DNA of 64,000 nucleotides, from NCBI GenBank assembly GCA_016197005.1, contig JACPWO010000004.1, positions 6,305 through 70,304 of the forward strand. Reading direction: 5' to 3'. The DNA is from Candidatus Anderseniibacteriota bacterium. GTDB lineage: Bacteria > Patescibacteriota > Andersenbacteria > UBA10190. A model generated the notes under the pieces. That model was not told where the DNA came from. It searched no databases and saw only the letters and a program-made list of their open reading frames with translations. Position 1 is the stretch's first letter; each line of letters opens with the position of its first letter. Shown here piece by piece: positions 39,742 through 40,817 of this stretch. The position numbers and the translations under genes are program-made.

Positions 39742-40817
39742 ATGAGGAGATATGATAATTTGTTTAAAAAGGCCATTGCTCCCGAGTATCTCTTTACTGC
39801 CTGGGACGAGTTTCACAAAGGAAAGAGGAATAAACCGGATGTCCTGCGTTTTGAAATGGAGCTTGAACAAAATATCTTTCAACTGCATCGCGAGCTTCAG
39901 AACAGAACATACAAACATGGAGCGTATACTGGGTTTAAGATCTGTGATCCCAAGCTGCGCCATATACATAAAGCGACTGTGCGCGACCGAGTAGTACACC
40001 ATGCAGTGTTTAAGGTACTGAACAGGGTTTTTGAACCGACGTTTATTGCTGATTCGTTTTCGTGTCGGATCGGCAAAGGTACGCATAAAGGCGTGGCCAG
40101 AGTTCAGCAGATGATCCACCAAGTTTCCAAGAACCAAACACACCCATGTTATGCGCTCAAGTGTGACGTCCGTAAATTTTTCGATACTGTTGATCACGAC
40201 ATTCTCCTGGTAATACTCCGCAGGAGAATTACCGATCCTGCCATGCTGTGGCTTCTTGAAGAAATTGTTGAAAGCTATATAAGTGTGATTTCGAGAGAGA
40301 GAGAGAGAGAGAGAGAGAGAGAGAGACGGCGCGCTGCCGCGCTGGCATACCTATCGGCAATCTGACCAGTCAGATCTTTGCTAATATCTACATGAACGAA
40401 TTTGATCAGTTCGTAAAGCATGAGCTGAAAGTAAAGCATTACGCCAGGTACACCGACGACTTCGTCGTTATAGCTGACAGTAAAATGTATCTGGAAAACT
40501 TAGTATTGTCTATTGAAGAAATGCTATCTAAGCGGCTTAAACTGGCGCTGCATCCGGATAAGATCGCGATGCTACCTTATCATCGGGGTATAGATTTTTT
40601 GGGCTATGTCATTTTTCCTCACTTCCGCCTTATTCGCAGTCGGACGAAGAAACGTATATTGCGGAGACTCAAGCAAAGAATGGAACAGTATGAAATGGGC
40701 GTTCTTTCAAAACAATCGATCTACCAATCGTTGCAATCCTATCTCGGTGTTTTGTCACATGCTAGTGCCTATAAGTTAGCGCGAGATATAAAAAATAGAT
40801 TTGGATTTCTTTCTTAA
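39742..40817 (+). CDS. DGR reverse transcriptase, reading frame split in two (39742..40365 and 40392..40817) by a frameshift inside a (GA)17 tract
   Basis: RT motifs are present: SFSCRIGKGTHKG, KCDVRKFFDTVDH, the DGR-specific IGNLTSQ (I/LGxxxSQ, which replaces QGxxxSP) and YTDDFVV. The frames join if the tract has 16 or 19 GA units. Confidence 0.75.
40293..40326 (+). repeat. (GA)17 dinucleotide microsatellite inside the RT gene
   Basis: 34 nt of perfect GA repeat. In frame it would encode (Arg-Glu)n. It is the site of the frame break. Confidence 0.9.

What the first reader, a model, noticed from the sequence alone, without database searches (positions are those of the whole stretch)
40293..40326. 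The DGR reverse transcriptase ORF is split by a frameshift inside a (GA)17 microsatellite
The RT N-terminal half (39742..40365, frame 1) runs into a perfect (GA)17 tract and terminates shortly after it. The C-terminal half, which carries IGNLTSQ and YTDD, continues in frame 0 from inside the tract (Lys-Leu-Tyr-Lys-Cys-Asp-Phe-(Glu-Arg)n-Glu-Thr-Ala-Arg-Cys-Arg-Ala-Gly-Ile-Pro-Ile-Gly-Asn...). Removing one GA unit (or adding two) would give a single RT ORF of about 357 aa, the expected size, with an (Arg-Glu)n linker. One possibility is a slipped-strand phase-variation switch that turns diversification on and off. To my knowledge this would be an unusual way to gate a DGR. Alternatives are programmed frameshifting or a polymerase-slippage artefact in the assembly. 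Each option changes the interpretation of whether the element is active.
Basis: partly seen in the sequence, partly recalled or inferred. Interest (0 to 1): 0.75.

Follow-up and report, generated by a model that had tools for sequence, protein, structure and literature searches.

The report
Microsatellite on/off switch in DGR reverse transcriptase
A run of 17 GA repeats splits the reverse transcriptase gene of a diversity-generating retroelement, and the same repeat at the same spot in about 180 related uncultured bacterial lineages gains and loses units, so it most likely turns targeted hypermutation on and off.

Summary
A perfect (GA)17 at 40293..40326 puts the catalytic C-terminal half of a DGR reverse transcriptase (RT) out of frame with its N-terminal half. 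Sixteen or 19 units would give one RT of 357 or 359 aa.

It is not a one-off or an assembly error. Pattern scans found a (GA)6-35 tract at the same loop, just upstream of the PIGNLT motif, in at least 239 loci (about 180 distinct lineages), nearly all named loci from Patescibacteria (CPR).
- Only about 22% are in frame; the two out-of-frame phases are about equally common.
- Both halves stay open and under purifying selection (dN/dS 0.07-0.30), including in pairs where both alleles are out of frame.
- Kilobase-long, otherwise identical contigs from different samples differ only by one GA unit, which changes the reading frame.
- In one lineage the VR was re-diversified at template adenines while RT, avd and TR stayed identical.
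- The window's RT keeps all 65 family-invariant residues, and an independent NCBI assembly also has 17 units.

Best reading: a slipped-strand contingency switch gating the DGR, currently OFF here. RNA-level slippage is not excluded. I found no published description. This is a new variant of known kinds and of high interest.

The parts
37936..38841 (+). DGR target gene (301 aa) with the variable region at its C-terminal end
   Evidence: ORF. It has no Pfam hit. It contains the VR.
38706..38835 (+). Variable region (VR)
   Evidence: 130-nt direct repeat with the TR. It has 22 mismatches, all at TR adenines. It is identical in the NCBI assembly and in two Logan contigs.
39221..39350 (+). Template region (TR)
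   Evidence: 33 adenines, 22 of them substituted in the VR. The VR and TR sit at the same distances from the tract (VR about -1.55 kb, TR about -1.0 kb) in 96 of 119 related loci.
39392..39736 (-). avd accessory gene (114 aa), transcribed divergently from the RT
   Evidence: Pfam bAvd PF22296, E 3e-17. A 100% identical protein is named as coming from Candidatus Andersenbacteria.
39742..40365 (+). RT N-terminal half ORF (207 aa). It runs through the tract and stops 12 codons after it.
   Evidence: It aligns to bRT (8ub7) residues 3-169.
40293..40326 (+). (GA)17 microsatellite, the proposed switch. It lies in the loop between RT motifs 3 and 4.
   Evidence: The bRT alignment breaks exactly at this loop. 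The equivalent loop is the only segment with pLDDT below 50 in the AlphaFold model of an in-frame homologue. A tract occurs at the same position in at least 239 loci.
40327..40344 (+). GC-rich hairpin directly after the tract (CGGCGCG-CTGC-CGCGCTG). Its role is uncertain.
   Evidence: RNAfold gives -11.5 kcal/mol, z -0.9 against shuffles. Comparable hairpins, often with a TTCG loop, occur in about a quarter of the genome-set loci.
40327..40817 (+). RT C-terminal half (frame 0). Motif 4 GIPIGNLTSQ is at 40344-40373 and the catalytic YTDD at 40449-40460; the stop is at 40815-40817.
   Evidence: It aligns to bRT residues 177-302. All invariant family residues are present.

Best explanation
The (GA)17 tract is a conserved, hypermutable simple-sequence repeat. 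It lies in a disordered surface loop of the DGR reverse transcriptase, between motif 3 and motif 4.

Proposed mechanism:
- Slipped-strand mispairing during DNA replication adds or removes GA units.
- Each unit moves the catalytic C-terminal half (motifs 4-7, YTDD) into the next reading frame relative to the N-terminal half.
- One frame in three gives a full-length RT with an (Arg-Glu)n loop (ON). The other two give a truncated protein of about 200 aa without a catalytic centre (OFF).
- Every OFF allele is one unit away from an ON allele. This copy has 17 units and is OFF; 16 units would be ON.
- Most cells therefore keep their current VR sequence. A minority ON subpopulation makes adenine-mutagenised cDNA from the TR and diversifies the target protein.

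Shown here:
- the tract and the frames;
- the family-wide occurrence at one site and the excess of OFF alleles;
- single-unit polymorphism between otherwise identical genomes;
- purifying selection on both halves;
- tolerance of RE loops of very different length.

Inferred:
- that the length changes arise by replication slippage and are reversible within populations;
- that OFF alleles make no active RT;
- that the switch is adaptive.
For: 1. Site specificity.
- Nearly all named loci are Patescibacteria/CPR.
- In 1.475 Mb of these loci only 2 other dinucleotide tracts of 6 or more units exist.

2. Frame distribution.
- Among 180 clusters (95% identity) with a complete N-half, 39 are in frame, 76 are +1 and 65 are +2.
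- The in-frame share is 21.7% against 1/3, binomial p = 8e-4. The genome and metagenome sets each replicate this.

3. Both halves are kept.
- The C-half is open for at least 130 codons in 172 of 176 loci.
- dN/dS is 0.07-0.18 in eight of nine estimable comparisons and 0.30 in the ninth. This includes pairs where both alleles are OFF: L001/L042 gives 0.11 and 0.085.
- The window's RT keeps 65 of 65 invariant and 56 of 58 near-invariant residues.

4. Hypermutability. In each pair below, one GA unit is the sole or nearly the sole difference.
- L066/L084: 4.86 kb, 14 against 13 units; tblastn frames show OFF against ON.
- L043/L163: 3.66 kb, 9 against 10 units, OFF against ON.
- L245/L246: 4.1 kb, 13 against 12 units, split RT against a 354-aa RT.
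- L187/L199: 7 against 8 units, plus four substitutions about 0.7 kb downstream.
- Pairs 90-92% identical in their flanks have 35 against 17 and 10 against 27 units.

5. Repeat counts are reproducible, so they are not assembly noise.
- The window and GCA_016178385.1 both have 17 units, although the two assemblies differ elsewhere.
- L123 and L154 both have 8 units.
- In the P0155 lineage, all five displayed places other than L246 have 13 units, and 16 further similar places were reported but not displayed.

6. Link to DGR activity.
- L144 (9 units, ON) and L123/L154 (8 units, OFF) are 100% identical across RT, avd and TR for about 1.5 kb.
- Their VRs differ at about 20 positions, and each VR differs from the TR almost only at TR adenines.
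- In the two cases where an OFF allele was sampled repeatedly, the VR was identical: the window lineage and L123/L154.

7. The loop tolerates length changes.
- In-frame alleles carry 6 to 25 units.
- In an AlphaFold2 model of an in-frame homologue (pLDDT 85), the only segment below 50 is QRERERERERVN.

8. The tract is a DNA-level repeat, not a product of codon usage.
- AGA is 6% of Arg codons and GAG 30% of Glu codons in the window's genes.

9. Persistence.
- Tract-bearing RTs share a median of only 49% aa identity and fall into a few large groups in a neighbour-joining tree.
Against: - No read-level data were available for this window. The only two full assemblies of this lineage both show 17 units. 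The Logan contigs simply break in the tract because it is longer than k = 31. Heterogeneity in this population is therefore not demonstrated.
- The polymorphism was seen between samples, not within a clone, so reversibility and rate are inferred.
- The in-frame share (22%) is not far from the neutral 33%.
- In the P0155 lineage the ON and OFF alleles carry the same consensus VR.
- RNA-level slippage could make some full-length RT from OFF alleles, in which case OFF would not be truly off. Three things fit that view: (GA)n allows perfect tRNA re-pairing after a 2-nt slip; AGA is a rare codon here; and a GC-rich hairpin follows the tract in about a quarter of loci.
- Tracts of only 6-7 units should slip slowly, yet they are mostly OFF: 28 of 33 alleles.
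Confidence: 0.62

Rival explanations
1. RNA-level recoding. RNA polymerase or the ribosome slips by 2 nt, once or repeatedly, on the (GA)n tract. Every DNA allele then yields a fraction of full-length RT. The DNA frame only tunes the amount, and the tract is a programmed frame scrambler rather than an on/off switch.
For: - Both out-of-frame phases are about equally common, and both halves are under purifying selection. That is what is expected if the DNA frame hardly matters.
- After a 2-nt slip, AGA and GAG codons re-pair perfectly. This follows directly from the sequence.
- AGA is a rare Arg codon in this genome, 6%. From my own knowledge, tandem rare AGA/AGG codons promote ribosome stalling and frameshifting in E. 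coli.
- A GC-rich hairpin starts 0-8 nt after the tract in about 25% of loci, including the window. That is the usual geometry of a frameshift stimulator.
- One frame has a TAA directly after the tract in 24 of 82 '+1' loci.
- Contigs of an OFF-consensus lineage end at the VR, which hints at VR heterogeneity.
- Precedent: a phage DGR RT spread over three frames was interpreted as programmed frameshifting (PMC8008677).
Against: - No canonical slippery heptamer is present.
- From my own knowledge, transcriptional slippage in bacteria is established for A/T homopolymers and not for dinucleotide repeats, and a purine-RNA:pyrimidine-DNA hybrid is unusually stable.
- The hairpin is absent from most loci and is not enriched in OFF alleles.
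- In-frame alleles are significantly fewer than 1/3, so the DNA frame is not neutral.
- The position of the N-frame stop after the tract is not conserved; it ranges from 0 to 121 codons.
- Tracts of 6-7 units are barely longer than an RNA:DNA hybrid.
Confidence: 0.2
2. Mutational hazard without a switch function. The tract is merely an unstable repeat that keeps knocking out the RT. It would persist through a protein-level need for an RE-rich loop, or through expansion bias. OFF alleles are then transient loss-of-function variants with no adaptive role.
For: - The tract is demonstrably unstable.
- A few loci carry extra frameshifts in the N-half (L096, L158, L230), so some copies do decay.
- The in-frame share is within a factor of 1.5 of the neutral expectation.
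Against: - 78% of 180 independent lineages have an OFF consensus, yet both ORF halves remain intact with dN/dS around 0.1. Deleterious knock-outs would not dominate populations while the gene stays under selection.
- An RE loop could be encoded stably with the preferred codons (CGN, GAA). Instead the rare AGA and the minor GAG are used without interruption.
- Many related RTs have a short loop with no RE at all (94 of the 120 best homologues), so the RE loop is not required for RT function.
- The tract has persisted across lineages that share only about 49% aa identity.
Confidence: 0.1
3. Dead element. The RT of this window is a pseudogene, and the DGR is a fossil.
For: - The ORF is split.
- The VR is identical in all four sampled assemblies of this lineage.
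Against: - All 65 invariant and 56 of 58 near-invariant residues are intact, and neither half contains an internal stop.
- avd, TR and VR are intact. The VR differs from the TR only at adenines.
- The same split state is the norm in lineages that remain under purifying selection.
Confidence: 0.03
4. Assembly or sequencing artefact. The true tract has 16 or 19 units, and the frameshift comes from polymerase stutter or a consensus error.
For: - Long dinucleotide repeats stutter during library PCR.
- De Bruijn contigs with k = 31 from three SRA runs cannot span the tract.
Against: - An independent NCBI assembly (GCA_016178385.1) differs from the window by a SNP and two indels elsewhere, and it also has exactly 17 units.
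- Repeat counts are reproducible across samples in other lineages.
- Out-of-frame counts are the majority in 180 lineages assembled by many groups and methods.
Confidence: 0.03
5. Split enzyme. The two halves are translated separately and assemble into an active two-piece RT.
For: Both halves are conserved ORFs in all frames of the population.
Against: - In the window, the first ATG/GTG/TTG in the C-half frame is at 40392, downstream of motif 4 (GIPIGNLTSQ).
- No ribosome-binding site and start codon is conserved after the tract.
- In-frame single-chain alleles exist in the same species.
Confidence: 0.02

Closest known systems
Simple-sequence-repeat contingency loci (phase variation by slipped-strand mispairing), for example CT/GA dinucleotide repeats in Helicobacter pylori outer-membrane protein genes (oipA, sabA) and tetranucleotide repeats in Haemophilus. 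This comparison rests on my own knowledge.
   Same: - An intragenic perfect repeat whose unit number sets the reading frame.
- Both ON and OFF alleles are found among near-identical genomes.
- The repeat is maintained although it is unstable.
   Different: - The gated gene is not a surface antigen or a restriction-modification enzyme. It is the polymerase of a targeted hypermutation system, so one stochastic mutator controls another.
- The hosts are free-living or episymbiotic CPR bacteria, not host-adapted pathogens.
- The repeat sits mid-gene, in a loop between catalytic motifs, rather than near the 5' end.
- It is conserved across about 180 lineages that share only about 49% protein identity.
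Phasevarions (phase-variable mod methyltransferase genes) and tandem-repeat switches in mutL that toggle mutator phenotypes. This comparison rests on my own knowledge.
   Same: A repeat-number switch in an enzyme gene whose activity changes the heritable state of other loci.
   Different: The downstream effect here is adenine-directed rewriting of one defined VR. It is neither genome-wide methylation nor genome-wide mutation-rate change.
Canonical DGRs (Bordetella phage BPP-1 bRT-Avd, PDB 8ub7; CPR DGRs of architecture B3 in Wu et al. 2018, PMC5758913)
   Same: - RT with the I/LGNxxSQ and YxDD motifs.
- An Avd gene.
- A TR/VR pair with adenine-only mismatches.
- VR at the 3' end of the target gene.
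- avd in reverse orientation, consistent with the reversed-avd arrangement typical of CPR DGRs.
   Different: - Described DGR RTs are single ORFs, and surveys kept only 'putatively functional' elements.
- bRT has a 7-residue loop where this family carries the RE/(GA)n insertion.
Quimbyvirus (gut phage) DGR RT encoded in three overlapping frames (Benler et al. 2021, PMC8008677)
   Same: A DGR RT that is not one ORF, yet shows evidence of adenine-specific VR variation. The authors note that DGR RTs had until then been predicted only as single ORFs.
   Different: - That case was interpreted as two programmed ribosomal frameshifts at fixed sites.
- No microsatellite and no length polymorphism were reported.
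- It is a phage, not a CPR chromosome. A scan of IMG/VR for the GA-tract pattern found nothing.
Recoding that limits transposase or RT production in mobile elements: IS3-family -1 frameshifting, transcriptional slippage on A-runs in IS elements, and -2 frameshifting in arteriviruses. This comparison rests on my own knowledge.
   Same: The catalytic part of a mobile-element enzyme lies in another frame, which keeps activity low.
   Different: - Those sites are fixed heptamers or homopolymers with a single defined shift.
- Here all three frame relations occur in nature, and the DNA itself varies.

Membership tests
Diversity-generating retroelement (DGR) | Reverse transcriptase of the DGR clade (motif 4 [IL]GNxxSQ, YxDD) | tested here: met
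   The fused ORF hits Pfam RVT_1 (E 7e-26). The best PDB hit is Bordetella bRT 8ub7 (E 1e-42). GIPIGNLTSQ and YTDD are present.
Diversity-generating retroelement (DGR) | TR/VR repeat pair whose differences are at TR adenines | tested here: met
   130-nt repeat with 22 mismatches, all at TR adenines (A to G 9, A to T 9, A to C 4).
Diversity-generating retroelement (DGR) | Accessory protein Avd | tested here: met
   Pfam bAvd PF22296, E 3e-17, next to the RT.
Diversity-generating retroelement (DGR) | Ongoing mutagenic retrohoming (activity) | not testable with these tools
   In this lineage the VR is identical in four assemblies. In a related lineage the VRs differ, each departing from the TR almost only at TR adenines, between otherwise identical contigs.
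SSR contingency locus (slipped-strand phase variation) | Perfect short tandem repeat inside the ORF, far longer than chance allows | tested here: met
   (GA)17 is the only dinucleotide repeat of 5 or more units in 64 kb.
SSR contingency locus (slipped-strand phase variation) | Unit number decides whether the full protein is made | tested here: met
   17 units give 207 aa; 16 units give 357 aa; 19 units give 359 aa. All three frame relations occur among homologous loci.
SSR contingency locus (slipped-strand phase variation) | Repeat-number polymorphism among otherwise identical genomes | tested here: met
   Met in homologous lineages: L066/L084, L043/L163, L245/L246, L187/L199, and L144 against L123/L154. 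Not observed in the window's own lineage, where two assemblies both have 17 units.
SSR contingency locus (slipped-strand phase variation) | Within-population heterogeneity and reversible high-frequency switching | not testable with these tools
   No reads were available. The only hint is that a k = 31 Logan contig ends exactly at (GA)13G, although a 26-nt tract is shorter than k. That implies a branch in the assembly graph.
SSR contingency locus (slipped-strand phase variation) | The gene stays functional despite frequent OFF states | tested here: met
   dN/dS is 0.07-0.18 in eight of nine comparisons and 0.30 in the ninth, including OFF/OFF pairs. The window keeps 65 of 65 invariant residues.
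Programmed ribosomal frameshifting | Fixed slippery site with one defined shift direction and a conserved stimulator at a defined spacing | tested here: not met
   There is no X XXY YYZ heptamer. The +1 and +2 frame relations and in-frame alleles all occur (76, 65 and 39 clusters). A downstream hairpin is present in only about 25% of loci. Non-canonical 2-nt slippage on (GA)n is not excluded.
Programmed transcriptional slippage | Homopolymeric A/T run of about 9 or more, giving a heterogeneous mRNA population | tested here: not met
   The tract is a dinucleotide repeat, not a homopolymer. mRNA heterogeneity cannot be tested with these tools.

The most novel reading that the evidence does not exclude
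Many CPR/Patescibacteria DGRs carry a selected 'switch on the mutator'. A (GA)n contingency repeat is built into a tolerant loop of the reverse transcriptase. It keeps targeted hypermutation OFF in most cells and stochastically ON in a few. This would answer the open question of how a DGR host retains a useful VR variant once it has been found. On this reading it is an ancient, lineage-wide, two-tier evolvability device and not a local accident.
Probability: 0.6. Interest if true: 0.88.

Novelty: new variant of a known kind. Interest (0 to 1): 0.82.

Why it matters
- **Regulation of DGRs.** DGRs are the only known prokaryotic systems of targeted protein hypermutation. How their activity is regulated, and how a beneficial variant is protected from further mutagenesis, is largely unknown. 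A heritable, reversible, stochastic ON/OFF switch inside the RT gene would be a simple answer for the CPR lineages that carry it. CPR bacteria are among the richest in DGRs.
- **Annotation practice.** About three quarters of these RT genes look 'broken' in assemblies. Pipelines that require an intact RT ORF discard them or label them pseudogenes. DGR prevalence and 'activity' in CPR genomes may therefore be systematically misjudged.
- **Testability.** The GA count is a ready-made marker that can be read directly from metagenomic reads. It could be correlated with VR turnover in existing time series.

Tried and rejected
- **Scan for the window's own tract flanks** with a variable gap in metagenome contigs: 0 hits.
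- **Exact look-ups of the two RT half-proteins:** not on record. Look-ups of the neighbouring Avd and methyltransferase worked. They returned only 17-unit assemblies or k = 31 contigs broken in the tract, so they give no information on length heterogeneity in this lineage.
- **GA-tract pattern in IMG/VR viral contigs:** 0 hits. The feature is not evidently phage-borne.
- **Rfam scan of 38500-41200:** no family.
- **Hairpin after the tract as a general element:**
  - The mean z-score against dinucleotide shuffles is only -0.37 (p = 2e-4).
  - Strong hairpins occur in about a quarter of loci, with no enrichment in OFF alleles.
  - I kept it as a side observation and not as part of the mechanism.
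- **Codon-usage explanation for the repeat:** rejected. AGA is 6% of Arg codons and GAG 30% of Glu codons.
- **Excluded comparisons:**
  - L008/L175 and L155/L175 looked polymorphic only because L175 starts inside the tract, so I excluded them.
  - I ignored L178, which has two tract copies 120 nt apart, as a probable mis-assembly.
- **L066/L084:** ORF length suggested a disrupted N-half. tblastn shows a continuous N-half, probably with TGA read as sense, so the frame call rests on tblastn.
- **Avd families P0182 and P0144:** these turned out to have RTs without the loop tract and gave no allele information.
- **Literature:** ten full-text searches combined DGR with frameshift, phase variation, slipped-strand, microsatellite, contingency, GA repeat and Patescibacteria. 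None found a description of this tract. Paul et al. 2017 (PMC5436926), the main CPR DGR paper, is not held and could not be checked.
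Full report
**1. The observation**

Tandem Repeats Finder reports one period-2 array in the window: 40293..40326, 17.0 copies, 100% matches, unit GA. A regex scan shows no other dinucleotide repeat of 5 or more units in the 64 kb, and only three homopolymers of 8.

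The ORF 39742..40365 (207 aa) runs through the tract as (Arg-Glu)n and stops 12 codons later. Frame 0 reads KLYKCDF(ER)nE-TARCRAGIPIGNLTSQ...YTDD and runs to the stop at 40815-40817. With 16 units the two parts fuse into 357 aa; with 19 units they give 359 aa.

**2. It is a real DGR**

- The fused protein hits Pfam RVT_1 (E 7e-26). Its closest solved relative is the Bordetella DGR RT, 8ub7 (E 1e-42).
- A bAvd-family gene lies divergently at 39392..39736.
- The last 130 nt of the 301-aa ORF 37936..38841 (VR, 38706-38835) repeat at 39221-39350 (TR). There are 22 mismatches, all at TR adenines.
- A protein 100% identical to the Avd is named as coming from Candidatus Andersenbacteria, a CPR/Patescibacteria lineage.

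**3. Where the tract sits in the protein**

The alignment to bRT breaks into two blocks: query 2-173 and query 200-332. Twenty-six residues of the query face seven residues of bRT, exactly at the tract.

I modelled an in-frame homologue, P0001 (74% identical), with AlphaFold2 using 60 aligned homologues. Mean pLDDT is 85. The only segment below 50 is residues 183-194, QRERERERERVN. The tract therefore encodes a disordered loop between motifs 3 and 4.

**4. The key finding: the tract is a family trait**

Among the 120 best homologues of the fused RT (all CPR, 55-74% identical), 26 carry RERERE-type stretches at this same loop. The others have a short YSTLFERK-type loop.

I then scanned DNA collections for (GA)6 or more, followed within 5-35 nt by the codons for PIGNLT. 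The pattern is blind to reading frame.
- GTDB species genomes gave 119 stretches and metagenome contigs gave 120.
- Nearly all named loci are Patescibacteria MAGs: Wolfe-, Nomura-, Berkel-, Doudna-, Uhr-, Yanofsky-, Giovannoni- and Peregrinibacteria, among others.
- IMG/VR viral contigs gave none.
- Tract lengths run from 6 to 35 units with a median of 10. The window's 17 units is at the 93rd percentile.
- In 1.475 Mb of these loci there are only two other dinucleotide tracts of 6 or more units.
- Of 119 loci with enough upstream sequence, 96 show a TR/VR pair with at least 80% of mismatches at adenines. The distances from the tract match those in the window: VR about -1.55 kb and TR about -1.0 kb.

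**5. Frames**

For each locus I compared the frame that is open for at least 150 codons upstream of the tract with the frame of the PIGN motif.

| Set | In frame | +1 | +2 | Note |
|---|---|---|---|---|
| Genome loci | 23 | 44 | 37 | |
| Metagenome loci | 18 | 38 | 32 | |
| One locus per 95% cluster (180 clusters) | 39 | 76 | 65 | 21.7% in frame against 1/3, p = 8e-4 |

The split state seen in the window is therefore the majority state. Both out-of-frame phases occur, and in-frame alleles are somewhat under-represented. A dinucleotide unit shifts the frame by 2. Every OFF allele is therefore one unit away from an ON allele.

**6. The split genes are not decaying**

- The C-half is open for at least 130 codons in 172 of 176 loci.
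- Nei-Gojobori dN/dS for moderately diverged pairs is 0.07-0.18 in eight of nine estimable comparisons and 0.30 in the ninth (L204/L207 N-half). Pairs with both members OFF include L001/L042 (0.108 for the N-half, 0.085 for the C-half) and L196/L240 (0.14 for the C-half).
- The window's own RT retains all 65 columns that are invariant in the 60-sequence alignment. It also retains 56 of 58 columns conserved at 90% or more; the two exceptions are F to M and K to R.
- A few loci (L096, L158, L230) do carry additional frameshifts.

**7. The tract mutates far faster than its surroundings**

| Pair | Aligned length | GA units | Other differences | State |
|---|---|---|---|---|
| L066 / L084 | 4,863 nt | 14 / 13 | none | OFF / ON by tblastn frames |
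| L043 / L163 | 3,660 nt | 9 / 10 | none | OFF / ON |
| L245 / L246 | 4,108 nt | 13 / 12 | none | RT split 212+143 aa / RT 354 aa |
| L187 / L199 | about 1,000 nt | 7 / 8 | four substitutions about 0.7 kb downstream | both OFF, in different phases |

L197/L233, L114/L145 and L159/L162 also differ in unit number at more than 99% flank identity. Pairs 90-92% identical in their flanks have 35 against 17 and 10 against 27 units.

The counts are also reproducible where expected, so they are not assembly noise:
- L123 and L154 come from different samples, differ by 13 SNPs, and both have 8 units.
- In the P0155 lineage, all five displayed places other than L246 have 13 units, and 16 further similar places were reported but not displayed.
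- The window and the NCBI assembly GCA_016178385.1 differ by a SNP and two indels elsewhere, and both have 17 units.

**8. Link to diversification**

L144 (9 units, in frame) and L123/L154 (8 units, out of frame) are 100% identical over about 1.5 kb of RT, avd and TR. Their VRs differ at about 20 positions, and each VR differs from the TR almost only at TR adenines. VR rewriting therefore happened in the same short interval as a unit change.

In the two cases where one OFF allele was sampled repeatedly, the VR was identical. These are the window lineage, with four assemblies, and L123/L154. In the P0155 lineage the ON and OFF contigs share the same consensus VR, although several contigs end in or next to the VR. 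This evidence is anecdotal but points in the predicted direction.

**9. A DNA repeat, not codon usage**

In 32 long ORFs of the window, AGA is 6.1% of Arg codons and GAG is 30% of Glu codons. The chance that an (RE)n peptide of this length would be written purely as AGA-GAG is about 1e-10.

Tract-bearing RTs share a median of 49% aa identity (minimum 28%). In a neighbour-joining tree they fall into a few large blocks rather than one clade or a random scatter. The repeat has therefore been kept, or regained, over deep divergence.

**10. Interpretation**

The tract is a slipped-strand contingency switch that gates the DGR. In this genome it is OFF, one unit away from ON.

What is shown:
- the anatomy of the tract and the frames;
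- the family-wide distribution;
- the polymorphism between near-identical genomes;
- the purifying selection on both halves.

What is inferred:
- that replication slippage is the cause and that switching is reversible within populations;
- that OFF alleles make no active RT;
- that the arrangement is adaptive, for example by fixing a useful VR while a minority keeps exploring.

**11. The main rival**

RNA-level slippage is not excluded.
- (GA)n allows perfect tRNA re-pairing after a 2-nt slip.
- The tract would be a run of rare AGA codons.
- A GC-rich hairpin follows the tract in about a quarter of the genome-set loci. In the window it is 40327-40344, at -11.5 kcal/mol. It often has a TTCG loop, and the stems differ between loci. 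Across all loci the excess stability over shuffles is small (mean z -0.37), and it is not linked to OFF alleles.
- All three frame relations occur and the position of the N-frame stop varies. A classical fixed-site programmed frameshift is therefore not met.

Assembly error, a dead element and a two-piece enzyme are each unlikely, for the reasons listed under the rival explanations.

**12. Novelty**

Simple-repeat phase variation and DGRs are both well known, but I found no report of the two combined.
- The closest precedent is a gut-phage DGR RT spread over three frames and interpreted as programmed frameshifting. Its authors note that DGR RTs had until then been predicted only as single ORFs (PMC8008677).
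- The large DGR survey of Wu et al. compiled only 'putatively functional' elements (PMC5758913).
- Ten full-text searches found nothing on a repeat tract in a DGR RT.
- The main CPR DGR paper (Paul et al. 2017) is not held and could not be checked, so prior mention cannot be fully excluded.

**13. Verdict**

This is a new variant of known kinds and of high interest. It turns the question of how DGR activity is controlled in nature into something that can be read directly from metagenomic reads.

Noticed in passing
window 40327-40344; also L002, L015, L020, L027, L028, L037, L040, L043, L069, L085, L087, L089, L092, L103, L116 directly after their tracts: A GC-rich hairpin directly follows the tract in about a quarter of the genome-set loci. 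It often has a C(TTCG)G loop. The stems differ between loci but stay complementary (GCAGCC/GGCTGC, GCGGCC/GGCCGC, GACAGCC/GGCTGTC, GGCGC/GCGCC). The segment is read in different frames in different loci, which suggests a constraint at the nucleic-acid level. Its role is unknown (slippage or frameshift stimulator?).
   Followed up: partly
first bases after the tract in L001-L241: 'GTA' follows the tract in 105 of 239 loci and 'GTAAA' in 68 of 239, whatever the frame. It is read as Arg-Val-Asn/Lys, as Glu-Ser-Lys, or as a TAA stop. The base before the tract is C in 160 of 239. In 24 of 82 '+1' loci the N-frame stops on this TAA.
   Followed up: partly
L120, L121 and L243 (Logan contigs of SRR12113416, SRR12113388 and SRR12113417), equivalent to window 36392-40321, 38244-40320 and 40298-44802: Contigs built with k = 31 from three SRA runs are identical to the window. 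All of them terminate inside the GA tract after 28-29 nt. This is expected for a 34-nt repeat longer than k. It identifies the runs in which read-level heterogeneity could be measured.
   Followed up: yes
L249 (Logan SRR35813280), contig end: The contig ends exactly at (GA)13G although the tract (26 nt) is shorter than k = 31. That implies a branch in the assembly graph, and so probably co-existing 13-unit and longer alleles (or stutter reads) in one sample.
   Followed up: no
L246, L247 and L248 (P0155 lineage), contig ends at -1664, -1592 and -1524 relative to the tract: Three contigs from different samples end just before or inside the VR (-1631..-1501). This is typical of assembly breaks at a heterogeneous VR, and it occurs in a lineage whose consensus RT allele is out of frame.
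   Followed up: no
window 43960-44173 and 44575-44608 (murB region); window 40980: The NCBI contig JACOTL010000003.1 (GCA_016178385.1) is otherwise identical to the window. It lacks these two segments, so its MurB is called as 284 aa instead of 356 aa. It also has one SNP at 40980. This is a strain or assembly difference, and it shows that the two assemblies are independent.
   Followed up: partly
L029 and L044, immediately upstream of the tract: (TC)6 directly abuts (GA)n, giving a perfect palindrome that could form a cruciform or hairpin.
   Followed up: no
L251-L256 and L258 (P0182 Avd lineage): These RTs (348 aa) have no loop tract. A constant (GA)6 sits directly after the RT stop codon in all seven contigs that cover this site.
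   Followed up: no
L144 against L123/L154, -2812..-2403 relative to the tract: A second divergent block about 1 kb upstream of the VR contains indels and non-adenine changes, in contigs that are otherwise identical. It may be recombination or a hypervariable N-terminal part of the target gene or its neighbour.
   Followed up: no
L066, L084 and L184, RT N-halves: These N-halves show in-frame stop codons under table 11, yet tblastn homology is continuous. The lineages probably read TGA as sense (code 25), so ORF-based frame calls there needed tblastn confirmation.
   Followed up: partly
L236, 11.3 kb downstream of its RT tract; L178: L236 has a (CT)16 tract outside any recognisable RT. L178 carries two tract-bearing copies 120 nt apart (10 and 11 units), probably two alleles mis-assembled in tandem.
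   Followed up: partly
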